A model generated the notes under the pieces. The model worked only from the letters and a program-made list of their open reading frames with translations. It was not told the origin of the DNA and searched no databases. This document shows, one piece after another, positions 2,747 to 49,448 of a stretch of DNA of 64,000 bases. The position numbers and the translations under genes were made by a program. How positions within the stretch are numbered: position 1 is the first letter of the stretch; the number at the start of each line of letters is the position of its first letter. The stretch comes from a virus (lineage: Duplodnaviria > Caudoviricetes): the IMG/VR virus record IMGVR_UViG_3300020190_000054, positions 633 to 64,632 of that record. The stretch is one strand, 5' to 3'.

Positions 2747-3136
2747 TTAAGGCTGAATATCAAGCGCTGAAACGGTAAAAACAACACCAGAAGCAACCGA
2801 GGAACGTGCCCTTAATTTACTGCCGTAAGGAACGTTGGCTTTATTGACGATAAATTCCAGGGAGGAGTTGGCGGGTACCACAATGGTTTTACCCATTAAG
2901 AAACTCCCGGACTCAGTATCAACTGTACCCGTGGCAGTGCTAGTAGAGCCGGTCAGCGTGGTGTAAAGGCTTACGTTTACATCACCGGTGCTGGTGTTAG
3001 AAGCAAGCGCCGACAGCACAATGGAAACACCACTGGAGTTCGTTAAGGCACCGTCTTGGCCACTGGTGGGGTTATAAACATCAGCGATACCAGTGGTTGT
3101 TAACTGGGTACCTTTGAACTTAAAATACTCGGCCAT
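2747..3136 (-). CDS. small beta-rich virion protein of the tail-fibre cluster
   Basis: 129 aa ORF with IVVPANSSLE motif; genomic context. Confidence 0.55.
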   Translation of the reverse strand: MAEYFKFKGTQLTTTGIADVYNPTSGQDGALTNSSGVSIVLSALASNTSTGDVNVSLYTTLTGSTSTATGTVDTESGSFLMGKTIVVPANSSLEFIVNKANVPYGSKLRARSSVASGVVFTVSALDIQP

Positions 3137-3174
3137 TGCTAAGACTCTTTTCTACTGATTATAAGATCAAGAAA

Positions 3175-3774
3175 TTAACCAGCAAGGGCAATTACAAGCC
3201 CTAGGCTAACTCCTCCAGCGGTTGCTGCAGTTGTTTGCGTGGTGCCATCAGGGAACTTAAAGCCACCTGAGGTTGACTGAACAATACCTGACGTAACCAC
3301 ACCAGAGGCAAAGTTACCGCTGTTAAACAGGCTTAAGTTACCCCTGGTTGTAGCACCAGAGATTTGAGTAGTGAATACACCGGAAACAAAGTTGGCAGTC
3401 GTACCAGTTGTCGTTGTTCCCGTAAGAGTTGTGAAGTTCCCACCAAGGGCAGAAATATTAGTGAAGTTACCAGTATTACCAGTGACGGTGGCACCGGAAA
3501 TTTGAGTGGTAAATACTCCGGAAACAAAATTGGCAGTCGTACCGGTAACAGTAGTACCAGTAAGCGTTGTAAAGCTGCCTCCAATGCCTGCAACATTGGT
3601 GAAGTTACCAGTATTACCAGTTACTGTTGCGCCACTTACTTGGGAGGTAAATACGCCTGATGCTCCGGAAATCTGAGTAAAGCCATTTTGAACGGCTTGT
3701 GTAAAATCAAAAGTAGTATCACCGCTACCCGGATCGTAAATAAGGGTATTAACTTTTAAAGTGCCGTATGCCAT
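3175..3774 (-). CDS. short tail-fibre-like repeat protein
   Basis: 199 aa, G/T-rich; about 46-aa repeat GVFT.QISGATVTGNTGNFT; GFKFPDGTTQTTAA fibre motif. Confidence 0.7.
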   Translation of the reverse strand: MAYGTLKVNTLIYDPGSGDTTFDFTQAVQNGFTQISGASGVFTSQVSGATVTGNTGNFTNVAGIGGSFTTLTGTTVTGTTANFVSGVFTTQISGATVTGNTGNFTNISALGGNFTTLTGTTTTGTTANFVSGVFTTQISGATTRGNLSLFNSGNFASGVVTSGIVQSTSGGFKFPDGTTQTTAATAGGVSLGLVIALAG

Positions 3775-3794
3775 TGCGGTCTTTTCTTTTTATT

Positions 3795-6428
3795 TTAATT
3801 CAAGATTCTCCAGACACTTCCGGAGGGTATTGTAACCGTAAAGCCGGATGCCACAGATGCTGTTTCAATAGAAGCAGCGTTGTAACCACTGGTAATAGTA
3901 TAGTTCTGGTCAATGATTAATTTACTTTCTAATACTGGTTTATCAATAACAATTCCACTACTGGTGCTGATAGCCCAAACTGTGCTTCCATTGCCAAGAG
4001 TTGTCAGTACGTAGCCTGAAAGCCCAACACTGTTTGGGAAAGAAAATTGACCAAAAGGTCGAACATCCCCTGCACCAGAAACAAACGTTGTTCCACCAGC
4101 AATAAAAGTAGAGCCAGAAACACGGCTGAACTGACCAGATGTAACAGTTAAGGTGTCACCAGTAATTAAGGCGCCGGAAAGTTGGGAGGTAAATACTCCG
4201 CTGATCCCAGTAATTTGAGTGAATTGGCCATTAATTCCGGTGATCGTAGTCCCCTGGATCGTATTACCGGTAATAGTTGTGCCTGAGATTTGGCTTGTGA
4301 ATACACCACTAATTCCAGTAATAGTTGTGTATTGACCGGTGTCTCCGGTAATTACGGCACCAGATAATTGACTCGTGAAAACACCAGAGCTGAAGTTGGC
4401 GTTTGTACCGGTAACGGTTGCGCCTGTGACGGTGGTGAATCCAGCGGTATTACCCGTTAATGTTCCAAATTGACCTGCATTTCCGGTAATTGTGGTACCA
4501 GAAATTTGTCCGGTGAAGACTCCACTAATGCCTGTGATTTGCGTAAATTGACCATTGATTCCAGTGAATGTGGTTCCCTGGATCGTATTGCCGGTAATCG
4601 TTGCACCGGAAATCTGGTTTGTGAATACACCGCTGGCAAAGTTAGCGTTGGTACCAGTGACAGTTGCACCGGTGACTGTTGTGAATCCAGCAGTATTACC
4701 AGTAAGAGTATTAAATTGCCCTGCATCGCCTGTGATTACAGCTCCGGAAATATTAGTGGTTCCAACTAAGTAAGTTCCAGTAATATTTGTGGCTTGGATG
4801 TTTGTACCGGTAATTGTGGTACCACTTAAAGTTCCAGTGACATTGACACCAGAACTAAAAAATCCAGATCCTTGAACAACTAAATCACCGGTAACAGTTA
4901 GTGTTCCGGAAACCGTTTGTGAATACGCAGTTAAATTTTGAAATGTACCGGAGGTGAAATGAGCAATATTACCGGTAACCGTTGCACCAGAAATTTGAGT
5001 GGTGAAAACACCCGAAGAAAAGTTTGCAGTAGTACCAGTGATTGTGGCGCCGGTCAGCGTAGTGAAACCACCGCCTATTCCGGTAATACTTGTGAATTGA
5101 CCGTTGGTACCGGTAATTGTTGTTCCGGTAATAGTCGTAAAGCCCGCTGTATTACCAGTCAGTGTGGTGAATTGGCCAAGATTACCGGTGACCGTGGCAC
5201 CAGACAAAGTATTTGTAAAGGTTCCGCTACTGAAGTTAGCGTTAGTGCCGGTGACTGTGGCCCCTGTAAGCGTTGTAAACCCACCGCCAATACCAGTGAT
5301 GGACGTAAACTGACCCGTTGTACCAGTAATGGTTACACCAGAAATACTGCCAGAGTTTACTGTTAAGCCTGAGGCAATTGTTGCTGTTTGACCAACGGTG
5401 AGTGTTCCGCTAGTAAGAATATTGCCAGTGACGGTAATGTTTTGTTTGACAACACCGGTTTCAAACGTTGCCGTAATAGCATTTAATGTTGTGAAATTTC
5501 CAGTATTTCCAGTGATTGTGGCGCCGGAGATCTGTGAGTTAAAAACTCCGCTATTACCTGTAAGAGTTGTAAAATTAGCAGTGTTTCCGGTAATCGAAGC
5601 ACCGGAAATTTGACTTGTGAAAACACCTGATCCGCCAGTGATTGTGGTGAATTGTGCGTTAGTGCCAGTAACTGTTACGCCACTGACTGTTCCACTGATA
5701 TTGACACCAGAACTAAAGAAGCCAGAGCCCAGTACACGCAGATTTCCGGTAACCGCAAGGTCTCCGCTAATGTTCTGAGAAGCAACGTTTAACGTTTGGA
5801 ACGTACCACTGGTGGCATTGATGTTATTGCCAGTGATTGTTGCGCCAGAAATCTGAGTGGTGAATACGCCACTGCTTGCATTGACCGTCGTACCTGTAAT
5901 GGTTACGCCGCTGACGGTATTAGCAGTAACAATGTTTGAAAAATTACCGGTCAGTGTATTGACCGTCGTACCGGTAATTGTTGTACCAGAGAGCTGTGAT
6001 GTGAATACACCACTGCTAGCGTTAACAACATTTCCGGTAACGGTAGTGAATTGACCGGAGGTACCAGCAACAAGATTTCCTTGGATCGTATTACCGGTAA
6101 TTGTGTTGCCGGTCAGCGTTCCCGTAATACTCGCGCCGTTTTGTACGACTAAGCTGGCGAGGGTTGTGGTCCCAGTGACCGTAATGCTATTTAGTGTTGT
6201 GCTTCCAGAGACAGTAATGTTGTTGGCAAAAATTACCGCACCGCTAACGGTACCGCCTGTAAGAGGTAAATAATAAAGATCTAAATATGCACGAACGCCG
6301 GAAACAGTTAGTTTTTTATTTTTAATTGTGGGGTCGACTTCTGCGACCTGTACAACGGTAAATAGGTCACCGTCCGCCAGATTGATCCCGGCGATTTCCT
6401 GTAGATCAGAGATCCTACGGTTTGCCAC
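3795..6428 (-). CDS. long tail-fibre-like protein with G/T/S/N-rich repeats (probable beta-helix)
   Basis: 877 aa; N-terminal RRISDL...DLF..V attachment-type motif; many SGVFTSQISGATITG repeats; C-terminal NYTITSGYNA...VTIPSGSVWRIL. Confidence 0.8.
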   Translation of the reverse strand: MANRRISDLQEIAGINLADGDLFTVVQVAEVDPTIKNKKLTVSGVRAYLDLYYLPLTGGTVSGAVIFANNITVSGSTTLNSITVTGTTTLASLVVQNGASITGTLTGNTITGNTIQGNLVAGTSGQFTTVTGNVVNASSGVFTSQLSGTTITGTTVNTLTGNFSNIVTANTVSGVTITGTTVNASSGVFTTQISGATITGNNINATSGTFQTLNVASQNISGDLAVTGNLRVLGSGFFSSGVNISGTVSGVTVTGTNAQFTTITGGSGVFTSQISGASITGNTANFTTLTGNSGVFNSQISGATITGNTGNFTTLNAITATFETGVVKQNITVTGNILTSGTLTVGQTATIASGLTVNSGSISGVTITGTTGQFTSITGIGGGFTTLTGATVTGTNANFSSGTFTNTLSGATVTGNLGQFTTLTGNTAGFTTITGTTITGTNGQFTSITGIGGGFTTLTGATITGTTANFSSGVFTTQISGATVTGNIAHFTSGTFQNLTAYSQTVSGTLTVTGDLVVQGSGFFSSGVNVTGTLSGTTITGTNIQATNITGTYLVGTTNISGAVITGDAGQFNTLTGNTAGFTTVTGATVTGTNANFASGVFTNQISGATITGNTIQGTTFTGINGQFTQITGISGVFTGQISGTTITGNAGQFGTLTGNTAGFTTVTGATVTGTNANFSSGVFTSQLSGAVITGDTGQYTTITGISGVFTSQISGTTITGNTIQGTTITGINGQFTQITGISGVFTSQLSGALITGDTLTVTSGQFSRVSGSTFIAGGTTFVSGAGDVRPFGQFSFPNSVGLSGYVLTTLGNGSTVWAISTSSGIVIDKPVLESKLIIDQNYTITSGYNAASIETASVASGFTVTIPSGSVWRILN

Positions 6429-10288: not shown

Positions 10289-10623
10289 ATTCTTACAGTA
10301 CGTCTGTAAATACTGTTCTTCCAGGATTGTTGTCTAATGATTGCGTGGATGGTGTGTGCCCAGTTCCCTGGGCCGTAGTTCCAACGCGACCGGAAATTAA
10401 AGAAGATGTAGTCAATCATCCCAGTCACTACACCGATGGTGGGATCGAATGTATTGAAGCAATTGAAGCTCAATTAACTCTTGAAGAGTATCGCGGTTAC
10501 CTCAAGGGCAACATTGCAAAATATGTATGGCGTGAGCGTCACAAAGGAGGAAGTGAGTCCCTCAAGAAAGCCCAGTGGTACTTAACACGTCTTGTTGAGC
10601 TAGGCGACGTTCAGAAGGGCTGA
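10093..10623 (+). CDS. DUF3310 (SaV-like) protein; start uncertain
   Basis: VNHPSHYT.GGIECIEAI...GYLKGN..KYVWR..HKGG..SLKKAQWYL. Confidence 0.85.
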   Translation: MSGRKGEDKFVDRGGTARNDGLHSVDGAGTSDGSSTQAQSIGDGAGRADRGDARDVTKAPWFNPVDSYSTSVNTVLPGLLSNDCVDGVCPVPWAVVPTRPEIKEDVVNHPSHYTDGGIECIEAIEAQLTLEEYRGYLKGNIAKYVWRERHKGGSESLKKAQWYLTRLVELGDVQKG

Positions 10624-23608: not shown

Positions 23609-23640
23609 TTATTTTTCCTTTGTTGTGTTTATGTTATTTA

Positions 23641-25625
23641 TCAGACGCTACCGTCATCAGACACAAAGCTGTAGGCGGTGGTCACGAAGTCCTTGTTCAG
23701 GATCTCGAAGCCAGCGTACAGTTGCCAGATGAGGATGATGAAACGGCTGAAGTCGTCGTTGTTGTTGATCAGCACCTGAGCGTTCGGACCGCCGATACCA
23801 ACGCCAATGGCTTGAGGACCGAAGAAGAAACCTTGGGCAACTTCTTGGTTGGCATAAGGGGCAGCGCCGGTGAAAGAAGCCGAAACGTTCTTGGTCGGGA
23901 AGTTGGTCGACTCGAAGAACTTAACGCCTTCAAACTGAACACCAGTCGGCATGACGGGTTCACCAGCCAGGAAATAAGCCTGACCAGCTTGGGGACCCAT
24001 GTAGAAGCTGGCGTTGTTAGGCATCATGGGGTTGCCCATGTACATGCCTTGGCCAGGATTGCCAGCGTAACGAGCAATTTCACGGAAGTCGGGATCACGA
24101 CGCAGGTGCATCATGAAGGTGGGATCGCAGATGCAACGATACAGACCATCAGCGAAGGTAGGAACGTTACGCTTGCGCAGATCCTTGACAACAGTCAGAA
24201 GGTCGGTACGCACCGAGAACTGCTGCACATCAGCGGTGTACTCAGCGGAGCTGTAAGTAACTTGGCTGGAAGAGTTCTTGGCTTTGTTACCAGGGAAGTA
24301 GTAACCACCTTGGGTGCTGGAAGCTTGACCATTGGCATCAGCTTTGGCCAGTTCGTCAATGAAGACGCGGTCACGCCAACGGCGATAGTCATCAAGCAGC
24401 GTCAGGCTACCGATCGACTGGTGGAACATATTCAGGTTGCCGGTGTCCAGCAGCAGACGCTGGGCGGTAACCAGGGTTTCACGAGCAATCTTGAAGGTGC
24501 TGGGCTGGGTCGGATCGCCCGGATCAGCAGGGCCGGTGTACTCTTTCAGCACAACAAGCACCTTCTCTTTGGTGATGTTGCGGCTGTTAGCGGTACCGAT
24601 GGTTTGGTCAGCCACGCGCTCACGGCTGTCCTTGGTACCAGGAGTACCCCAGAACTTATAGCGGTCGAGCTGAACGGTTTGACCAGGCTGACGAGTGAAG
24701 TCGTGAACAACCACGGGCTCCACAGCCATCTCGGCAATATATGCAGGGTGCGGACGATAGAGTTCCGCGCCTAAAATCTTTGGAAAATCGTTCTCCTGGT
24801 CCCTAATTTCTTAGAGGGGTGGACTATCTCTTCATCCCTGTGGGATGCCGGACGCTAAATCTGGTATTACGTAACAAGATCGTGTTACCCCCAGTAGTCT
24901 CTGCACCTTCCAATCACGGGCTTGATTGGCTTGGCTCAGGATTACCCTCGTCTTTACGTTAGGGCTTCCCTGAATTCATCCGGTTTGCACTCATCAATTA
25001 CTCGATGAGGTGACAACGTTGAGCGTTCAGTTGAGGTATGATTTGGAAACCTGTTCATAAACAACATGGATCCAAAATTAGTTCCTGGATTTGGTAACCT
25101 TTACTTAACAGAAAGAGGAGAAGCTTTTGAAAAACAACTTGATGAAAACAACCAAGAATATTTTCAAAAAATTGCAATTAGCTCAACCAGTACTTATGAC
25201 CGTATTTCTGTTCTTGTAAATGGAAGAAGAAAGAGGTTTCATCTTCACGTCTTGATGGCTATTGCTTTTTTAGGGTTAGATCTTCGTTCACATGGAACAA
25301 ATAATTTTTCCCTTCAAGTAGATCACAAGGACAACAACAAAAGAAATAACTGCGTCGATAACCTTGAAATCGTAACCAAACAAGAAAATCTTACAAGAGC
25401 TTGGGAAACCGGTTGTTACAAGAACAATGGTTTTGCTAGTAAAGGCAGACCGAAAAAAACTTTAAGAAAATTTTCTTCGGAAGACGTGAAGCAAATTAAA
25501 ACTTTAAAAGAAGCAGGACTTTCTTATCGAAAGATTGCGGAAAAGTTTAACTGCAATCACGGTGCTATTTACCAAATCCTAAAAGGAAATACCTACCAGG
25601 ATCTGAACTAGCTATCAATAAACAC
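23641..25625 (-). CDS. major capsid protein, spliced: join(25614..25625, 23641..24792), 387 aa
   Basis: GGAGG SD at 25636-25640; GTG TTT ATT GAT exon joins in frame to AAC GAT TTT CCA, giving MFID-NDFPKILGAELYRPHP...; body has G.TVQ..RY, L.EY, HP-like DPTF..LRRD, G...GVKFFES and D.F.R....W, typical of N4-gp56-like capsids. Confidence 0.85.
24793..25613 (-). mobile_element. group I self-splicing intron (821 nt) in the major capsid gene
   Basis: Conserved core on minus strand: P AAUUCAGGGAA, Q AAUCCUGAGC, R GUGCAGAGACUA, S AAGAGAUAGUCC; P3 CCGGAUG/CGUCCGG; P7 GACUA/UAGUC; exon ends in U and intron ends in G; P1 UGAU^AGC/GUUGUCA; P10 CGUU/AACG. Confidence 0.93.
25066..25611 (+). CDS. intron-encoded HNH homing endonuclease with C-terminal HTH, antisense to the intron
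   Basis: HVLMAIAFLG...QVDHKDNNKRNNCVDNLEIVT..EN, then GLSYRKIAEKFNCNHGAIYQI; AT-rich relative to flanks; TATGAT at 25037-25042. Confidence 0.92.
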   Translation: MDPKLVPGFGNLYLTERGEAFEKQLDENNQEYFQKIAISSTSTYDRISVLVNGRRKRFHLHVLMAIAFLGLDLRSHGTNNFSLQVDHKDNNKRNNCVDNLEIVTKQENLTRAWETGCYKNNGFASKGRPKKTLRKFSSEDVKQIKTLKEAGLSYRKIAEKFNCNHGAIYQILKGNTYQDLN

Positions 25626-25720
25626 CTTGGTTTATCCTCCAGTGTTAATTTTGTTATCGGGTGAGAAGACTTGGCTTTTGCCTCATCTACTACAAATTGT
25701 AGCAGTCAGTAATTTATTTA

Positions 25721-26260
25721 TTACGTGTACTGCATGGTAGGTGCTTTATAACGAGCACCCATCGAATTACTGGAGCCATAAGACTCCGGATCAACTACAG
25801 CTTGCTGGAATCCAGGGAGACCCATGGCACCAGGAATAGCGCCAAGGGCTACACCGCCAAGACCGGCAGCAGCAGCAGAAGCAGGAACTAAACCAAGAGC
25901 CACGTTCCTACCTAGCACACGCGTAGTTGCCGCAGTTGCTTCAGGAATAGAACCTGCGCCACCTGCTACATCAGCTAGCTCCAACAGAGCTTTCTGACGT
26001 AAACCGCCTTCACGCATCTTTGTTGCTTGTTCAAAAAGGAAGTCCTGTTGTTCTTGGCCCAAATTTTGGATACCTTTTACCATTTGAGGAGCGTACTTCC
26101 CGGCTAGAGCACGTGCCCCAAGTAAACCAGCTGCACCACCAAGACCACCGGCCGCAGCAGCAAGTGCCGCAGAACCGGGATCCTCTCCTTGAGAAAGGGC
26201 GTACCCACCCGTGGCTAAGCCAGCAGCAATAGGTACGCCATAAGCTAAGCGCTTACGCAT
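25721..26260 (-). CDS. Gly/Ala-rich (glycine-zipper-like) putative virion or membrane protein
   Basis: 179 aa with GxxxG repeats. Confidence 0.6.
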   Translation of the reverse strand: MRKRLAYGVPIAAGLATGGYALSQGEDPGSAALAAAAGGLGGAAGLLGARALAGKYAPQMVKGIQNLGQEQQDFLFEQATKMREGGLRQKALLELADVAGGAGSIPEATAATTRVLGRNVALGLVPASAAAAGLGGVALGAIPGAMGLPGFQQAVVDPESYGSSNSMGARYKAPTMQYT

Positions 26261-39276: not shown

Positions 39277-41196
39277 TTAAATGTTCCGTCCAAGTTGACG
39301 ACGCAAGAAATCTTGCGGATCACGTCCTTCGATTCTAGCTCTACGCAATACTTCACTTACTGCAATACTTTCTTTAGCAACTTGACGACGATCAAGTTCT
39401 CTTTGAATTGCAGCAGCACCTGACTTGGTAGATTGCCCCAAGGCTCTAGTTAAACCTTCTGTTGTTACACCCGAGTATGGTGTTGCTTCTTGTTTTGCAA
39501 TCCACTTGGGAACGTCGGTTGGTTTACGTGTTGCAGCAGCCGAATATTGTCCCGTTACTTTGCTCATAGCACCAGGTACATAGCCAGCCTCTTGTCCATA
39601 AATACCCATACCAGCAGAACCACCAGGGATTTCAGGCAGTGGTGCTCGATTTAAAATACTGTATTTAATTTCTTGTTTTGATTGTTGCGTTGTCGGCAAG
39701 TCCGGTGGCATTGCACCAGTGACTCTTAAAGCGCCTGGAATATCTTGTCCCGTTTCCATGGGAACACCTGGGACTAAGGGGTCGCCAGTACCAAAGAGTT
39801 GACGTTCTTCAACTTTAGGTAAAACTTCTTGCAAACTAGGCGATGCACCACGAATAGCGGTACCAACAGCCGTCGACTCAATCTGTGCTTCAGGCCCAAT
39901 GTTTACAAGGGTCGTTTCAGAAGGTCGCCCGGTTAAACCAGGGATGCGTTCTGATTCCGGCACTTCTTGAATACTGGCTGCTTCCACTGCTTTACGCACT
40001 GTGGTTGGAAGAGAGATGTTCTGACGAAACTCTTCAGTGCCAGGCTGTAATCCCGCTTTAGATGCCCAACCTTCTGCCAATGCACGTTCAAAGCGAGTAG
40101 TACCAGGGCGCAAACCGCGCTCAACTAACTCTTGACGCCGTTGCATCATTTCAGTTTTGGCAATATCCGCTAATTCTTGCGATGACAGTGAACGTGCTTG
40201 CTCAATTTGATCAACCGGAAGACCATCTGGAAGTTGAGACGCAACTTGATTAATAGGACCATCGTCCACATAACCAATCATCTGTGATGGCTCTGCTTCT
40301 GCCATCATGCGTTGCCGTTCTGCTTCAACAAAATCTTCTAAGAAACTAATCTCACCAAGATCATTGTCTTCATTTTGTTGAAGACTGTGCATAACCCGAC
40401 CAGTTTGTTGATCTTCTGCAGATTCAACAGCATTAAATTTTTGATCAGCAATTAATGGTTGTTGAATTTTTTGTGAATCAGTCAATGTTTCTGCTGGTGC
40501 TAATGACCCAGTAGATTCAAGATATGCACGAGGATTAAACCCTTCAGCGCCAGAAGAACGAATTTCAGTTAAAACATCATCAACTTGACGTTCAATACCT
40601 TGAACTTGTGCAGCTTGCCGCCGCATTTCTTGTTGAGTAGCGCGACCGGTTTCCAAACGCTTTGCTTGTTCATACTCTGGTGCGTACTTTTGAATAATGT
40701 CGTACGCAACATCGGAACCCAAAAGGTTTTGCGGTACAACTGAAACGTTGACTGGAGTTACGGCTTGAGTTTTAGGGGTATAAGGTAAATCCCAAGGACT
40801 TGGTGCAGCTTGTTGAGAAACAGATGGTTGAACAACAGGTTCTTTAGAGGGAGGAGGAGTTGTTTCTTGTACAACACGACGAACTGGTGACACTTCAGCC
40901 CCCATTTCCGCCAAGTCAACCTGACGAACACCAGCAGTTGCGGACTTTGCGGGACCACGGAGTAAACGACGACCGGCAATGGTGGCTCCTACGCCTCCAG
41001 CAAGAGCTAAACCTACGCCAATGCCGACTGATAGTGGATCAAACCCCTTTGATTCTTGCGATTCAGGTGCTTTGAGCTGATTACGACGGAATTCCAGTAC
41101 TTCTGGCGCCATCTGAGCCCTTTCTTCTGGCGATTCGGGGACAGGAACCCCGGTTGCGCGACTATATGCGTAAAAATCAGCCGGAGAAATGGCCAT
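39277..41196 (-). CDS. large low-complexity protein with an N-terminal membrane segment
   Basis: 639 aa; VGIGVGLALAGGVGATIAG segment; E/Q/P-rich. Confidence 0.65.
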   Translation of the reverse strand: MAISPADFYAYSRATGVPVPESPEERAQMAPEVLEFRRNQLKAPESQESKGFDPLSVGIGVGLALAGGVGATIAGRRLLRGPAKSATAGVRQVDLAEMGAEVSPVRRVVQETTPPPSKEPVVQPSVSQQAAPSPWDLPYTPKTQAVTPVNVSVVPQNLLGSDVAYDIIQKYAPEYEQAKRLETGRATQQEMRRQAAQVQGIERQVDDVLTEIRSSGAEGFNPRAYLESTGSLAPAETLTDSQKIQQPLIADQKFNAVESAEDQQTGRVMHSLQQNEDNDLGEISFLEDFVEAERQRMMAEAEPSQMIGYVDDGPINQVASQLPDGLPVDQIEQARSLSSQELADIAKTEMMQRRQELVERGLRPGTTRFERALAEGWASKAGLQPGTEEFRQNISLPTTVRKAVEAASIQEVPESERIPGLTGRPSETTLVNIGPEAQIESTAVGTAIRGASPSLQEVLPKVEERQLFGTGDPLVPGVPMETGQDIPGALRVTGAMPPDLPTTQQSKQEIKYSILNRAPLPEIPGGSAGMGIYGQEAGYVPGAMSKVTGQYSAAATRKPTDVPKWIAKQEATPYSGVTTEGLTRALGQSTKSGAAAIQRELDRRQVAKESIAVSEVLRRARIEGRDPQDFLRRQLGRNI

Positions 41197-41299
41197 TTGC
41201 AGTTATTACGGGTACTTTTGACCTGTTGTCATTCTATTGTTGACAAATCTTAAGTGTGCCGCCGTTATAGTAAGAGAAATGTGGTTGTAAGTTCCAGGG

Positions 41300-41512
41300 A
41301 TGGACGCTGGTACTAGGCAAAAACGGGTTGAAGCCCTTGAAAAAATCAAAGACCGTGCCGTAAACATGGCAAAAGAAGGAAGAGATTCCTTTGAGGTACG
41401 AGATTTTGTTACTAAAGCCAAAAAAGAATTGGCATATGAGCTTCCAGATGAGGAAGCTTTTACAAAAGCTATGAATGCAACGTTGGCTTATAAACGCAAA
41501 AGCAACAAATAA
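41300..41512 (+). CDS. small helical hypothetical protein
   Basis: 70 aa followed by a terminator. Confidence 0.6.
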   Translation: MDAGTRQKRVEALEKIKDRAVNMAKEGRDSFEVRDFVTKAKKELAYELPDEEAFTKAMNATLAYKRKSNK

Positions 41513-41537
41513 GTAAAAAACAACATAAATTTTAATC

Positions 41538-41563
41538 GCGGAGTTTAACCACTCCGCTTTTTT
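41538..41563 (+). terminator. intrinsic terminator
   Basis: GCGGAG-N8-CTCCGC followed by TTTTTT. Confidence 0.75.
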
Positions 41564-41740
41564 GGCTGGTTTTTTGGGCTAATTAGGGAAAATAATTACA
41601 AAAATTGTTTTTATTTTAAAGACTGGCCCGTATATCTACCAGGTTGGGGTGATAGTTACTTTACTCTTCTCCACCCGCCCGTCCGAATGTGAATGTGGAG
41701 AGAAAAAAAAGAAAGGGCGGGGGTATGTGAAATGTAGGAG

Positions 41741-41863
41741 CCTGACTACGTTTAGTGAAGGTTACCTGACTACGTTGTGAGGATTCTGAAGGAAGCCTGA
41801 CTACGTTGGATGGTTACTGTAGGTTACCTGACTACGTTTAGAGGAAGGATACCTGACTACGTT
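41741..41863. repeat. five direct repeats of CCTGACTACGTT (iteron-like)
   Basis: Copies start at 41741, 41765, 41796, 41827 and 41852. Confidence 0.92.
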
Positions 41864-42058
41864 TAGAGGAATGAGAGATTCTATCGCGAAGGACGAAGGA
41901 AGTCAGGCGAGTTTACATTAATCTTTCCAATTCACAAGGTTAAGTATTAACTACGTTTCACACCGAGCGGGCTACGACCCGCTCTTATCTGTCTACGTTA
42001 TGCGTCACTGCGCATATACACATAGCGATTGGTTACATATCTGATCAATTGCTTCGTT

Positions 42059-42076
42059 TGATACGAATTCGTATCA
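42059..42076. repeat. perfect 18-bp palindrome TGATACGAATTCGTATCA
   Basis: Read directly from the sequence. Confidence 0.85.
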
Positions 42077-42354
42077 CCATTTCGCTCTAATACGGTACAA
42101 AATCAATGCTTAGCGCTCCGCTCCGCTGGAAGTGCGTTATAGAACGGTGTAGAAATTGGGGGTTGACACGCCCTAATTTTCGTCTGTTCATTGATATTAC
42201 TTGGCTTTCACTTCGCCAGAGGTGATGTAAGCCCAATGTGCACTAGGGCTTAGGCCCTCTCGCAGGGTTAGAAGCCCTGAACTTCCACAGGTTTAGGCCT
42301 GCCAACTAACTTCTGCCCTTTGCGGAGATAGGCACCGCACTATTGGAGTAGACC

Positions 42355-42522
42355 ATGTCGGTTTACGTTGTTATCCTCTGTGATCTGTACCAGGATCACT
42401 TCAATATACGGAACATCTTGGGTTTATTTGCTAGCCGTGAAGCGGCTGACAAGTATGTTCAATCCCAAGAACTTGAGGAAGGTGAACGGTTTCTTGTTTA
42501 TAAGGAATACGTTCGAAACTGA
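42355..42522 (+). CDS. 55-aa first gene of the early arm (not in the ORF track)
   Basis: GGAG SD; MSVYVVILCDLYQDHFNIRNILGLFASREAADKYVQSQELEEGERFLVYKEYVRN. Confidence 0.6.
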   Translation: MSVYVVILCDLYQDHFNIRNILGLFASREAADKYVQSQELEEGERFLVYKEYVRN

Positions 42523-42543
42523 TCCGTCAAAGCGGGAGGACAG

Positions 42544-42885
42544 GTGCAAACCCTGTCCCAGTTATTGCGTAGGTACACACGTACTACTGCGCATCCTGCC
42601 CGTAAGGGCAGGCACTCAACTCACTGCATTATCCTTATGTTTATCTATCAACCCAACCAGTATTCCGACGATCGTGTCGTATGGTATGGCGGTGAATCGA
42701 CTCAGCTCCATTACGAGAAGGAATGTGTTGATGACAACGGCTGTCCTGAATGGAGAGGTGTTGCAGTACGTCCTTTTGGTAATGGGCTTCCCAGTGGCAT
42801 GTCAGAAATGCATGCTGAGCTAGTTGATTACTACTGCTATTGCAACACGATGAAGTATGAAAAGAAGTTAGCTATGGCTGACTGA
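42544..42885 (+). CDS. hypothetical early protein
   Basis: GGAGG SD before GTG. Confidence 0.55.
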   Translation: MQTLSQLLRRYTRTTAHPARKGRHSTHCIILMFIYQPNQYSDDRVVWYGGESTQLHYEKECVDDNGCPEWRGVAVRPFGNGLPSGMSEMHAELVDYYCYCNTMKYEKKLAMAD

Positions 42886-42983
42886 TACTTGATTCCTGCA
42901 CCTACCCATTACTTTTAACAAGAGGTGATGGGTTTCTGCAGGCTTCACACCTGCACAACTCAACTCAACCCAACAGAAGTCCC

Positions 42984-43226
42984 ATGACTCCTAAAGCTGT
43001 TGAACGTCTTCTCACTCAAGAAGCTCGTCTTCTTGCACGTCGAGATACTCCTTTCATTGACCAAGAAATTGAGAGTCAGCGTCAAGCTGCTCTTGATGTC
43101 TTTTATCAGTGGCAAGATGGCTTGGTACAGTTCCAGGACATTGTTCCTTTTTGCGTGGTGCTCGAACGTAAAGTTCGTCTGAACCATGATCTTATTAGAT
43201 GGGAACTTAACCATCTGATGGATTGA
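42984..43226 (+). CDS. hypothetical early protein
   Basis: 80 aa, flanked by structured intergenic elements. Confidence 0.6.
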   Translation: MTPKAVERLLTQEARLLARRDTPFIDQEIESQRQAALDVFYQWQDGLVQFQDIVPFCVVLERKVRLNHDLIRWELNHLMD

Positions 43227-43318
43227 TTTCTGCATTTAACCCTTCCCATCCATTGTGATGGGTGGGTTTACTGCAGAGTTCAACTCTGCTTGTTTACTTA
43301 CTTAATTCAACTCAACTT

Positions 43319-49166: not shown

Positions 49167-49382
49167 ATGGAATACACTGACGATCAACTCCTTGCCATGG
49201 CACTTGGCAATATCGGTGATTTCATCCATGACAATTCACCACACTATGTGTTGATCGAAGAAGATTTTCGCAACGATGAGGACTACGACACTTGGGATTA
49301 TGGCACTGAGCCATTGCCCCAAGATCACACTTGGCGTCATACATCTATTGATGTTTGTGTAAGTCCAAGTGCGCCTGAGTAG
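49167..49382 (+). CDS. small acidic hypothetical protein overlapping the tRNA 5' end
   Basis: 71 aa ORF. Confidence 0.5.
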   Translation: MEYTDDQLLAMALGNIGDFIHDNSPHYVLIEEDFRNDEDYDTWDYGTEPLPQDHTWRHTSIDVCVSPSAPE

Positions 49383-49448
49383 CCCAGCGGAAGAGGCAAA
49401 CGACTTAAAATCGTTCCAGCGTGGGTTCGAATCCCACCTCAGGTACCA
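49373..49448 (+). tRNA. trnL: tRNA-Leu(UAA), intron-less, short variable loop, encoded CCA
   Basis: Acceptor GCCTGAG/CTCAGGT-A-CCA; anticodon arm AACGA-CT-TAA-AA-TCGTT; T arm GTGGG-TTCGAAT-CCCAC. Confidence 0.92.

What the first reader, a model, noticed from the sequence alone, without database searches (positions are those of the whole stretch)
25011..25613. Homing endonuclease gene in antisense orientation inside the intron's P1 loop
Seen: the 181-aa HNH+HTH ORF (25066-25611, plus strand) lies entirely between the 5' splice site (25613) and the internal guide sequence (25011-25017). Its stop codon is 2 nt from the splice site. GUUCAG near the intron start can pair with CUGAAC near 25025-25030, closing about 570 nt of antisense ORF as a loop. 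A -10-like TATGAT (25037-25042) points into the ORF. Known: phage intron endonucleases are usually sense-encoded in peripheral loops. Inference: this one cannot be translated from the intron RNA, so it needs its own transcript. That transcript is complementary to the capsid pre-mRNA up to the splice site and could block P1 folding or translation, acting as a temporal switch between homing and capsid production.
Basis: partly seen in the sequence, partly recalled or inferred. Interest (0 to 1): 0.8.

Follow-up and report, generated by a model that had tools for sequence, protein, structure and literature searches.

The report
Backwards homing-endonuclease gene inside capsid intron
A self-splicing intron four codons into the major capsid gene of a freshwater cyanophage carries its homing-endonuclease gene on the opposite DNA strand, an arrangement described so far for slime-mould rDNA introns but, as far as my searches show, not for phages.

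Summary
An 821-nt group I intron (24793-25613, minus strand; Rfam 94 bits) follows codon 4 of the major capsid gene of an S-EIVl-like cyanophage. Intron-less relatives fix both splice sites.

The 181-aa HNH+HTH ORF (25066-25611, plus strand) sits inverted in the P1 loop. The arrangement recurs in all 80 IMG/VR relatives examined. All 58 distinct sequences keep an intact ORF (dN/dS about 0.10).

At least 120 intron-less alleles and 8 ORF-less introns also exist. One ORF-less/ORF-containing pair differs at 2 of 2968 nt on one flank, which bounds a roughly 550-nt cassette.

At the cassette's edge, 54 of 58 sequences carry TGnTAnnnT 23 nt before the start codon. This suggests an own promoter, although generic sigma-70 scans find nothing there.

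The "antisense temporal switch" remains untested. No strand-specific RNA was available, and joined RNA-library contigs cannot be told from intron-less alleles.

I read it as a mobile intron with an inverted, self-promoted endonuclease cassette: a new variant of a known kind, of moderate interest.

The parts
25635..25640 (-). Shine-Dalgarno-like GGAGGA of the capsid gene
   Evidence: Sequence. The same GGAGGATAAAC motif precedes the GTG start of the intron-less S-EIVl capsid gene.
25614..25625 (-). Capsid exon 1: GTG TTT ATT GAT (M F I D)
   Evidence: Aligned with the intron-less S-EIVl gene. Joining it to exon 2 gives a 387-aa protein that is 85.5% identical to the S-EIVl protein from residue 1.
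24793..25613 (-). Group I intron, 821 nt. The first base is A25613 and the last is G24793 (omega-G).
   Evidence: Rfam RF00028 at 94.2 bits. Boundaries come from intron-less alleles. Contigs in 3 of 4 RNA-library runs skip exactly 821 nt here, which is ambiguous because intron-less alleles would look the same.
25611..25617 (-). P1 5' strand, UGAU|AGC, spanning the 5' splice site
   Evidence: 7 of 7 pairs with 25011-25017, including U25614.G25014. The local fold of ORF-less relatives reproduces this helix in 2 of 3 loop types.
25011..25017 (-). Internal guide sequence GUUGUCA (P1 3' strand). Positions 25015-25018 also form P10 with exon 2 bases 24792-24789.
   Evidence: The region is 99% conserved across 58 distinct sequences.
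25608..25610 (-). In-frame UAG two codons into the intron. It lies in the palindrome CTAG, which also supplies the plus-strand TAG stop of the endonuclease ORF.
   Evidence: frame GTG TTT ATT GAT AGC TAG. An in-frame stop after exon 1 is a common feature of bacterial introns according to PMC3984707 (passage read).
25603..25608 (-). P1 extension, 5' strand GUUCAG. It pairs with CUGAAC at 25030-25025.
   Evidence: 6 of 6 pairs. In ORF-less introns this helix closes a short hairpin.
25589..25594 (-). Distal stem AGGUAU. It pairs with AUACCU at 25039-25034 and closes the cassette.
   Evidence: 6 of 6 pairs in the window. Five relatives show a change on both sides (A-U to G-C). The ORF-less L211 has the equivalent hairpin GGCA-AAU-UGCC.
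25040..25588 (+). Endonuclease cassette inserted in the terminal loop of the P1 hairpin. Boundaries are uncertain by a few nt.
   Evidence: L006 (with ORF) and L211 (ORF-less) differ by about 558 nt replaced by 5 nt. Their flank on the exon 2 side has 2 mismatches in 2968 nt. GC is 0.34-0.37 here against 0.53-0.58 in the capsid exon.
25037..25042 (+). -10-like hexamer TATGAT. Relatives have TGnTAnnnT at the same distance from the start codon.
   Evidence: (54 of 58 distinct sequences). Generic scans do not call it.
25043..25065 (+). Conserved leader of the endonuclease gene, with no Shine-Dalgarno sequence
   Evidence: TGGAAA, TGTT and AACAA are invariant in 58 of 58 sequences. Its likeness to the intron-less junction is weak.
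25066..25611 (+). HNH (HNH_3) plus HTH homing endonuclease ORF, 181 aa, antisense to the intron
   Evidence: The closest solved structure is I-HmuI (1u3e), E 2.1e-05. The ORF is intact in 58 of 58 distinct relatives and median dN/dS is 0.10.
24800..25043 (-). Ribozyme core P2-P9 as aligned by Rfam
   Evidence: alignment. The core is 97% conserved across relatives.
23641..24792 (-). Capsid exon 2
   Evidence: phrog_1357, major head protein, E 2.8e-17. It is 82% identical in DNA to S-EIVl.

Best explanation
This is a mobile group I intron in the major capsid gene of S-EIVl-like freshwater cyanophages. Its homing-endonuclease cassette sits inverted in the terminal loop of the P1 hairpin.

Shown:
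- The intron boundaries, P1, P10 and the ribozyme core.
- The ORF lies on the opposite strand and has been kept intact under purifying selection.
- Intron-less, ORF-less and ORF-containing alleles coexist.

Inferred:
- The cassette brings its own extended -10 promoter (TGnTAnnnT at its left edge). In most relatives a -35-like TTGAGC from the native intron lies 17 nt upstream.
- Transcription would start near 25049 and give a short leader without a Shine-Dalgarno sequence.
- The I-HmuI-like HNH enzyme nicks intron-less capsid alleles near GAT|AAC during co-infection, and repair copies in the intron plus cassette.
- The ribozyme removes all 821 nt, with the antisense ORF carried as a passive L1 insertion held together by the distal stem and the P1 extension.
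- The inverted orientation means no ribosome ever translates intron RNA, so splicing is not disturbed.
- It also uncouples the nuclease from the very high late expression of the capsid gene. Convergent late transcription probably limits the nuclease to earlier times.
For: The same order and orientation (exon 2, core, inverted HNH, exon 1) is found in all 80 IMG/VR loci kept of 122 relatives. The core is seen in 79 of 80 and exon 2 in 74 of 80; the rest are cut by contig ends.

All 58 distinct sequences have an intact 181-aa ORF. Across 297 of 300 sampled pairs, median dN is 0.048, dS 0.49 and dN/dS 0.10, with a maximum of 0.25.

At least 120 intron-less alleles share the same junction, and 72 of 80 examined read GAT|AAC. 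Eight ORF-less introns exist.

On a capsid tree of 136 distinct rows, intron presence changes at least 28 times, against a mean of 43.9 in 200 label shuffles. ORF-less cores nest within ORF-containing cores, with 3 changes over 42 rows. L006 and L211 bound the cassette.

For the promoter, TGnTAnnnT occurs in 54 of 58 sequences at a fixed distance, against 2.9% of 43-nt background windows. The T, G, T, A and T positions are 88-95% conserved while the n positions are 62-66%. TTGAGC-N16-18-TAnnnT occurs in 53 of 58.

The closest solved relative is I-HmuI.

Two T4 precedents come from PMC2988022 (passages read): intron endonucleases with their own promoters, and translation inside an intron impairing splicing.

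In the same capsid gene, relatives L005 and L049 hold further introns with sense-oriented LAGLIDADG ORFs. The inverted orientation is therefore particular to this cassette.
Against: No plus-strand transcript has been shown. The RNA runs were available only as unstranded contigs.

The generic sigma-70 scan finds no promoter at this place, either in the window or in relative L006. The best relatives score only about 8 of 12 hexamer matches.

The window itself lacks the TG and has the -35-like hexamer at an 11-nt spacing because of a 5-nt deletion.

Sequence conservation near the cassette's edge overlaps the distal RNA stem, so part of it may be structural.

Splicing is not demonstrated. Contigs that skip the 821 nt in 3 of 4 RNA-library runs are equally explained by intron-less alleles, which are abundant as DNA.

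The direction of change (cassette gain or loss) is unresolved.

The advantage I assign to the orientation is inference. The orientation could simply be a neutral accident of insertion.
Confidence: 0.6

Rival explanations
1. The plus-strand endonuclease mRNA acts as a cis-antisense regulator. It pairs with the 5' part of the capsid pre-mRNA (the L1 region, the 5' splice site and, if it reads on, the capsid start codon and ribosome binding site). That would block P1 formation or translation and so time the change from homing to capsid production.
For: The geometry allows it. The ORF ends 2 nt from the 5' splice site, and its last codons are the complement of the P1 extension and of P1. No terminator-like site follows on the plus strand up to 26300, and the fold of 25606-25735 is unremarkable, z -1.63. 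A transcript would therefore probably run across the capsid start region. The concern about antisense interference is voiced for antisense endonuclease genes in rDNA introns (PMC9548176, passages read).
Against: There is no transcript, timing or effect data. About as many relatives do without the intron altogether (at least 120), and some have the intron without the ORF (8). The capsid programme therefore does not depend on the antisense RNA. A weak internal promoter facing the late capsid promoter is more likely to be silenced than to silence. Relative L006 has a terminator-like hairpin about 40 nt past the stop codon.
Confidence: 0.12
2. The protein has been domesticated. It is kept because it serves the phage, for example as an HTH repressor, as a splicing helper, or as a weapon that cuts competing intron-less phages (intron-mediated exclusion), rather than for homing as such.
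For: Purifying selection is strong over considerable divergence, dN/dS 0.10 at dS 0.49. The leader is invariant in blocks and faintly resembles the intron-less junction. This recalls the I-TevI operator (PMC2988022, passage read).
Against: Abundant intron-less targets in the same habitats suffice to keep a selfish endonuclease active. The likeness between leader and junction is marginal: 230 of 5000 shuffles reach it in the window, and the median is 22.5 of 500 across relatives. Variants of leader and exon do not change together. The ORF-less introns show that splicing does not require the protein, assuming they are functional.
Confidence: 0.15
3. The orientation is a neutral accident. A free-standing endonuclease cassette with its own promoter landed in the loop in one of two possible orientations, and nothing about the antisense arrangement is selected.
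For: The cassette has sharp boundaries in a terminal loop and a foreign base composition. Both orientations occur in nuclear rDNA introns (PMC9548176, abstract and passages). All 80 loci trace to one insertion type, so the orientation is a single historical event.
Against: This reading partly overlaps with the best explanation and cannot be separated from it by sequence alone. The long persistence with dN/dS 0.10 shows the arrangement is at least well tolerated. Arms conserved at synonymous sites (25087-25097 with 25569-25579) hint at adaptation of the insert to the RNA.
Confidence: 0.1

Closest known systems
Antisense homing-endonuclease genes in nuclear rDNA group I introns (I-DirII in Didymium iridis Dir.S956-2; I-DsqI in D. 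squamulosum Dsq.L2066)
   Same: The endonuclease gene lies on the strand opposite to the ribozyme, inside a peripheral loop, and is expressed from its own internal promoter (PMC3073962, passage read; PMC9548176, abstract and passages read).
   Different: Those are eukaryotic. They use His-Cys box enzymes, a Pol II promoter, a spliceosomal intron and a poly(A) tail. They sit in P9.2 (Dsq.L2066) within an rRNA gene, and nucleolus/nucleoplasm separation is proposed to avoid antisense interference. Here the host is a phage, the enzyme is HNH, the insert is in L1, and the interrupted gene is a protein-coding late gene in a cell where transcription and translation are coupled.
Phage T4 td intron with I-TevI (also nrdB and nrdD introns)
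   Same: [quoted passage not shown] A homing-site-like operator overlaps the promoter. Translation inside the intron harms splicing (PMC2988022, passages read).
   Different: The T4 ORFs are sense-oriented and GIY-YIG (I-TevI and I-TevII). They are regulated by hairpins that hide the RBS. The T4 review mentions antisense orientation only for the free-standing segD.
I-HmuI, the HNH nicking endonuclease (PDB 1u3e); that it is encoded in the Bacillus phage SPO1 DNA polymerase intron is recalled, not from a call
   Same: It is the closest solved structure by sequence, E 2.1e-05 over residues 43-118. It shares the HNH_3-type motif followed by a C-terminal DNA-binding module.
   Different: The similarity covers only the nuclease core. 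That I-HmuI is sense-encoded in its intron, and that it nicks one strand, are recalled and not tested here.
I-PfoP3I in the DNA polymerase intron of cyanophage Pf-WMP3
   Same: [quoted passage not shown]
   Different: Its ORF is sense-oriented with an RBS in stem P6b. The intron is group IA2, in a T7-like phage, and interrupts a different gene.
ORF-less and intron-less capsid alleles of the same phage lineage (S-EIVl KJ410740; IMG/VR loci L085-L212)
   Same: They share the same capsid gene and insertion site, and the ORF-less forms share the same ribozyme.
   Different: They lack the cassette, or the whole intron.

Membership tests
Group I intron (Rfam RF00028) | Covariance-model score above the curated gathering score | tested here: met
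   94.2 bits against 50, covering the full model 1-253.
Group I intron (Rfam RF00028) | P1 helix pairing the end of exon 1 with an internal guide sequence, with U.G at the 5' splice site | tested here: met
   7 of 7 pairs, U25614.G25014. The columns are invariant in relatives, so there is no covariation evidence.
Group I intron (Rfam RF00028) | Terminal G (omega-G), and P10 between the guide sequence and the start of exon 2 | tested here: met
   G24793 is the last intron base. Four pairs form between 24792-24789 and 25015-25018.
Group I intron (Rfam RF00028) | Removal restores the reading frame of the interrupted gene | tested here: met
   The joined exons give 387 aa, 85.5% identical to the uninterrupted S-EIVl protein. 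At least 120 intron-less alleles have the same junction.
Group I intron (Rfam RF00028) | Splicing of the RNA | tested here: inconclusive
   Contigs in 3 of 4 RNA-library runs skip exactly 821 nt. Intron-less DNA alleles would give the same contigs.
HNH homing endonuclease (I-HmuI-like, Pfam HNH_3) | HNH nuclease motif | tested here: met
   HNH_3 at 32.3 bits against cut-off 24.8. phrog_59 at E 3e-27. 1u3e at E 2.1e-05.
HNH homing endonuclease (I-HmuI-like, Pfam HNH_3) | Separate DNA-binding module | tested here: inconclusive
   HTH_38 scores 26.5 bits, just under its cut-off of 27. HTH_7 and HTH_23 are also below their cut-offs.
HNH homing endonuclease (I-HmuI-like, Pfam HNH_3) | Presence/absence polymorphism at one fixed site among close relatives | tested here: met
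HNH homing endonuclease (I-HmuI-like, Pfam HNH_3) | Site-specific nicking or cleavage of the intron-less allele | not testable with these tools
   This needs purified protein and a substrate.
Antisense-encoded intron endonuclease (as I-DirII and I-DsqI) | ORF on the strand opposite to the ribozyme, within the intron boundaries | tested here: met
   The ORF 25066-25611 (+) lies inside the intron 24793-25613 (-). The same holds in all 80 loci.
Antisense-encoded intron endonuclease (as I-DirII and I-DsqI) | Own promoter and own transcript | tested here: inconclusive
   A conserved TGnTAnnnT occurs in 54 of 58 sequences. Generic scans give 0 sites, and no stranded RNA was available.
cis-antisense RNA regulator | The antisense RNA changes the processing, stability or translation of the sense RNA | not testable with these tools
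   Only unstranded contigs of RNA libraries were available.

The most novel reading that the evidence does not exclude
The endonuclease mRNA doubles as a natural antisense RNA against the 5' end of the capsid pre-mRNA, covering the P1 strand, the 5' splice site, the start codon and the ribosome binding site. Endonuclease expression would then hold back splicing and capsid translation until late transcription overruns the internal promoter. That would make a selfish cassette a timing device for a phage late gene. The protein may also repress its own promoter through the junction-like leader.
Probability: 0.12. Interest if true: 0.8.

Novelty: new variant of a known kind. Interest (0 to 1): 0.6.

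Why it matters
Phage group I introns are the textbook case of sense-encoded homing endonucleases, whose translation must be kept from disturbing the ribozyme. This is a widespread natural lineage in which the gene is turned round and has stayed intact for a long time: 122 relatives in IMG/VR, with dS about 0.5 among them.

The inverted gene sits in P1 itself, 2 nt from the splice site, in the most heavily expressed late gene, only four codons after the start codon.

Intron-less, ORF-less and ORF-containing alleles coexist, sometimes on nearly identical backgrounds. Other introns in the same gene carry sense-oriented LAGLIDADG ORFs. Together these make a ready-made comparative system for two questions. 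The first is how endonuclease orientation affects splicing, expression and homing. The second is how the gain-and-loss cycle of homing elements runs in wild phage populations.

I found no report of an antisense endonuclease gene in a bacterial or phage group I intron. This rests on searches and a term search of the review PMC3984707. These cover open-access texts only, and supplements were not seen.

Tried and rejected
- RNA evidence. All 24 runs listed hold only a small share of the stretch, at most 0.15. Four runs were laid (X1, X2, X11, X12). They are unstranded contigs, so they cannot show a plus-strand transcript, a start or a level. The 821-nt joint in X1, X2 and X11 cannot be told apart from intron-less alleles. 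X12 showed no such joint.
- Generic promoter and terminator scans gave nothing at the site. A scan of 41100-43300 gave 1 promoter-like site against 3.0 expected, which says nothing about the phage's promoter type.
- The whole-intron MFE fold of the ORF-less L211 did not reproduce P1. Of three local folds, the L205 type preferred another pairing.
- Likeness of the leader to the intron-less junction (operator idea). The repeats were found, but the significance is marginal: 230 of 5000 dinucleotide shuffles in the window, and a median of 22.5 of 500 mononucleotide shuffles, range 1-427, across 58 sequences. Control windows inside the ORF score almost as high. Leader and exon variants are not positively associated. 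A 15-mer search with 3 mismatches found no more matches than chance. I keep this only as a lead.
- Related intron cores in Vibrio phage 1.187.O (terminase gene) and in Klebsiella jumbo phages (tRNA cluster) are ORF-less and told nothing about orientation.
- A protein search of cultured phages gave only relatives of 35% identity or less, so the source of the cassette is unknown.
- Whether ORF-less forms are ancestral or deletion products could not be settled.
- Intron subgroup (IA, IC and so on) was not determined.
- No structure was predicted for the protein.
Full report
**What is in the sequence.**

The window belongs to a 64.6-kb IMG/VR virus record estimated 82% complete. From about 10.9 kb to 41.2 kb nearly all long ORFs lie on the minus strand. 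The 181-aa ORF at 25066-25611 is the one plus-strand exception that is not a shadow of a minus-strand gene.

The ORF carries an HNH_3 domain at 32.3 bits (cut-off 24.8). A C-terminal helix-turn-helix scores just under its cut-off, HTH_38 at 26.5 against 27. It also matches phrog_59, HNH endonuclease, at E 3e-27. Its closest solved relative is the intron endonuclease I-HmuI (1u3e), E 2.1e-05.

Immediately to its left, on the minus strand, Rfam finds a complete group I intron at 24800-25043, scoring 94.2 bits against a gathering score of 50. It is the only such intron in the record.

**Where the intron begins and ends.**

The nearest cultured relative is Synechococcus phage S-EIVl, 82% identical in DNA over the capsid gene. 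Its capsid gene is uninterrupted: GTG TTC ATT GAT ACC GAC TTT CCT ..., preceded by GGAGGATAAAC.

The window has GGAGGATAAACCAAG GTG TTT ATT GAT at 25640-25614. It resumes with AAC GAT TTT CCA at 24792.

The intron is therefore 25613 to 24793, 821 nt, beginning after a U and ending with a G. Joining the exons gives a 387-aa protein that is 85.5% identical to the S-EIVl protein from its first residue. Exon 2 matches the major head protein family phrog_1357.

| Helix | Positions | Pairs |
|---|---|---|
| P1 | 25617-25611 with 25011-25017 | 7 of 7, with U25614.G25014 at the splice site |
| P10 | 24792-24789 with 25015-25018 | 4 |
| P1 extension | GUUCAG 25608-25603 with CUGAAC 25030-25025 | 6 of 6 |

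I add a distal stem, 25594-25589 with 25034-25039, which closes directly around the inserted gene.

The palindrome CTAG at 25608-25611 supplies two stop codons. On the plus strand it gives the TAG that ends the endonuclease ORF. On the minus strand it gives an in-frame UAG two codons into the intron. Such a stop is thought to halt ribosomes before a bacterial intron (PMC3984707, passage read).

**Relatives.**

A scan of IMG/VR with the endonuclease protein gave 122 relatives. The best 80 (83-91% amino-acid identity) were kept. Every one of these has the same layout wherever the contig reaches far enough: capsid exon 2, ribozyme core, inverted HNH gene, exon 1. The core was seen in 79 of 80, exon 2 in 74 of 80 and exon 1 in 80 of 80.

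Of 74 loci with enough flank, 58 are distinct, counting the window. All 58 have an intact 181-codon ORF. Fifty-six start with ATG. Two start with GTG, and both of those have an in-frame ATG 9 nt upstream.

Conservation by codon position is 0.95, 0.98 and 0.84. Over 297 of 300 sampled pairs the median dN is 0.048, dS 0.49 and dN/dS 0.10. The gene is old within this lineage and under purifying selection. It is not a decaying passenger.

**The other alleles.**

Of the 80 I examined, 72 read GAT|AAC, as in the exons of intron-bearing phages. Eight read ACC, as in S-EIVl.

A gapped pattern for an intron with a short P1 loop found 8 ORF-less introns. Their 24-29-nt loops form a small hairpin of three different sequences. 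In two of the three types, the local minimum-energy fold is P1, the P1 extension and a distal hairpin.

One ORF-less locus (L211) and one ORF-bearing locus (L006), which lie on differently numbered IMG/VR contigs, differ at 2 of 2968 nt across exon 2 and the ribozyme. On the exon 1 side they are only 93% alike over 289 nt. About 558 nt in L006 replace 5 nt in L211.

This bounds the cassette. It lies in the terminal loop of the distal hairpin, between ...TTGAGGCA and CCTACCAGG... on the plus strand. The last six codons and the stop of the ORF are therefore native intron sequence. The cassette is also compositionally foreign, GC 0.34-0.37 against 0.53-0.58 in the capsid exon.

On a FastTree tree of 136 distinct capsid exon 2 sequences (79 intron-less, 54 with the cassette, 3 ORF-less), intron presence needs at least 28 changes. 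Two hundred label shuffles give a mean of 43.9, range 35-50.

On a tree of 42 distinct ribozyme cores, the ORF-less forms need 3 changes and lie within 0.5-1% of ORF-bearing cores. That alignment is short, so the count is rough.

Together these patterns indicate an element that is still moving, or being lost, in wild populations. I cannot tell gain from loss.

**How the gene could be expressed.**

Being antisense, the gene cannot be read from intron RNA. The nearest upstream plus-strand genes end at 10623.

The window's TATGAT (25037-25042) is not conserved letter for letter. Compared with most relatives, the window has a 5-nt deletion just before it.

Relatives show a clear pattern when anchored on the start codon:

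| Position relative to start codon | Base | Conservation (of 58) |
|---|---|---|
| -32 | T | 52 |
| -31 | G | 51 |
| -29 | T | 55 |
| -28 | A | 53 |
| -24 | T | 54 |
| four intervening positions | variable | 62-66% (36-38 of 58) |

TGnTAnnnT is present in 54 of 58 sequences. The four exceptions, the window among them, keep a plain TAnnnT. The motif occurs in 2.9% of 43-nt background windows of the same loci.

In 53 of 58 sequences, a -35-like TTGAGC lies 16-18 nt upstream. It belongs to the native intron and is also present in ORF-less forms.

This is the signature of an extended -10 promoter sitting exactly at the cassette's left edge. It would start transcription about 17 nt before the ATG.

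Against this, the hexamers are weak. The standard scan calls no site there in the window or in L006. Part of the conserved stretch overlaps the distal RNA stem. The sequences are also related, so the counts are not independent.

I therefore put the promoter at roughly 0.6.

The 23-nt leader has invariant blocks in all 58 sequences (TGGAAA, TGTT, AACAA) and no Shine-Dalgarno sequence.

**RNA data.**

In the four that I laid, contigs from three RNA libraries of three different studies join 24791/2 to 25613/4, skipping exactly 821 nt. This fits the predicted splice.

Intron-less alleles are common as DNA, and contigs carry no strand. This is therefore neither proof of splicing nor any evidence about a plus-strand RNA.

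**What the antisense arrangement does.**

The idea is geometrically possible.

- The ORF's last codons are the complement of the P1 extension and P1.
- No terminator-like site follows on the plus strand.
- The capsid start codon and ribosome binding site lie 3-27 nt beyond the ORF's stop.

Nothing tests the idea, however. The many relatives that have no intron, or an intron without the ORF, show that the capsid programme does not need such an RNA.

A simpler reading rests on the T4 literature (PMC2988022, passages read). Intron endonucleases there also have their own promoters. Their translation from pre-mRNA is suppressed, and releasing that suppression impairs splicing.

Turning the gene round achieves the same separation at a stroke. 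No ribosome can enter the intron beyond the UAG at 25610-25608, and the nuclease is not made at capsid levels. Convergent late transcription would probably shut the weak internal promoter, which would confine the enzyme to earlier times.

That reading is inference. The orientation may also be a tolerated accident of a single insertion event.

Two features suggest the insert has adapted to life inside the RNA.

- The distal stem around the cassette shows a two-sided change (A-U to G-C) in 5 sequences.
- An 11-nt inverted repeat (25087-25097 with 25569-25579) is kept nearly unchanged in 57 of 58 sequences, despite covering synonymous sites. It would draw the ends of the ORF together.

**Comparison with what is known.**

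Antisense endonuclease genes with their own promoters are documented in nuclear rDNA group I introns of myxomycetes. The examples are I-DirII (PMC3073962, passage read) and I-DsqI (PMC9548176, abstract and passages read).

My searches found no bacterial or phage case:

- Full-text searches for antisense or opposite-strand endonuclease genes in group I introns.
- A search for cyanophage capsid introns.
- A term search of the review 'Bacterial group I introns' (PMC3984707) for antisense, opposite and orientation, which returned zero occurrences.

The T4 review mentions antisense orientation only for the free-standing segD. The known cyanophage intron endonuclease I-PfoP3I is sense-encoded in P6b (PMC3428280).

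The searches cover open-access texts only, and supplements were closed.

Within this very gene, relatives L005 and L049 carry additional group I introns at other sites. Their Rfam scores are 32.7 and 42.9 bits, below the gathering score, with E 2.7e-06 and 3.1e-09. Both have sense-oriented LAGLIDADG_2 ORFs. The usual arrangement and the inverted one therefore occur side by side.

**Verdict.**

It is a new variant of a known kind: a phage group I intron with an HNH homing endonuclease whose gene is inverted, self-promoted and lodged in P1. The lineage is widespread, and all intermediate alleles survive in it.

- Interest: 0.6.
- The antisense-switch reading is not excluded. I give it about 0.12.

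Noticed in passing
L005 1055-2075 and L049 1273-2310 (relatives; equivalent to window about 24660 and about 24540): Two relatives carry a further insertion in capsid exon 2. Each has a sub-threshold group I intron match (32.7 and 42.9 bits) and a sense-oriented LAGLIDADG_2 endonuclease ORF (263 and 219 aa). The capsid gene of this lineage is therefore a repeated target of introns.
   Followed up: partly
L001 (S-EIVl KJ410740) 3040-4191: In the GenBank record the uninterrupted 383-aa capsid ORF is not annotated as one gene. The stretch is covered by a short minus-strand CDS (3040-3510) and a plus-strand 'hypothetical protein' (3505-4266), which is the antisense shadow ORF.
   Followed up: partly
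window 23620-24774 (+): A 384-aa plus-strand ORF lies entirely antisense to capsid exon 2. It is a shadow ORF of a GC-rich, codon-biased gene and is probably not a gene.
   Followed up: no
window 25042-25069 versus 24779-24793 and 25618-25630: The endonuclease leader resembles the intron-less junction: TTTGGAAA..GTT then ATAAAC..TGG, 12 of 15 and 11 of 13 matches. This recalls the I-TevI operator. Shuffle tests give only about p 0.05.
   Followed up: yes
window 25087-25097 and 25569-25579: A perfect 11-nt inverted repeat lies near the two ends of the endonuclease ORF. It is almost invariant in 58 relatives, including at synonymous positions. It may be a long-range stem that compacts the L1 insertion.
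   Followed up: partly
window 25626-25700: The intergenic leader between the 179-aa gene and the capsid gene is more conserved among relatives (mean 0.91, with long invariant runs) than synonymous sites of the flanking genes. No sigma-70-like promoter is detected. It may hold a phage-specific late promoter or an RNA element.
   Followed up: no
window 49373-49445 (+): A tRNA gene (Rfam RF00005, 58.8 bits) lies in the plus-strand gene block.
   Followed up: no
L082 (Vibrio phage 1.187.O) 2017-3382; L083 (Klebsiella phage Muenster) 2345-2859: Intron cores about 75% identical to this one interrupt a terminase gene twice in a Vibrio phage. The record annotates the terminase as three separate CDS. 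A similar core lies between tRNA genes in Klebsiella jumbo phages, where it is not annotated.
   Followed up: partly
L006 versus L211: Sequence identity drops from 99.93% to 93% exactly at the endonuclease cassette. The cassette therefore marks a recombination boundary between otherwise near-identical phages.
   Followed up: partly
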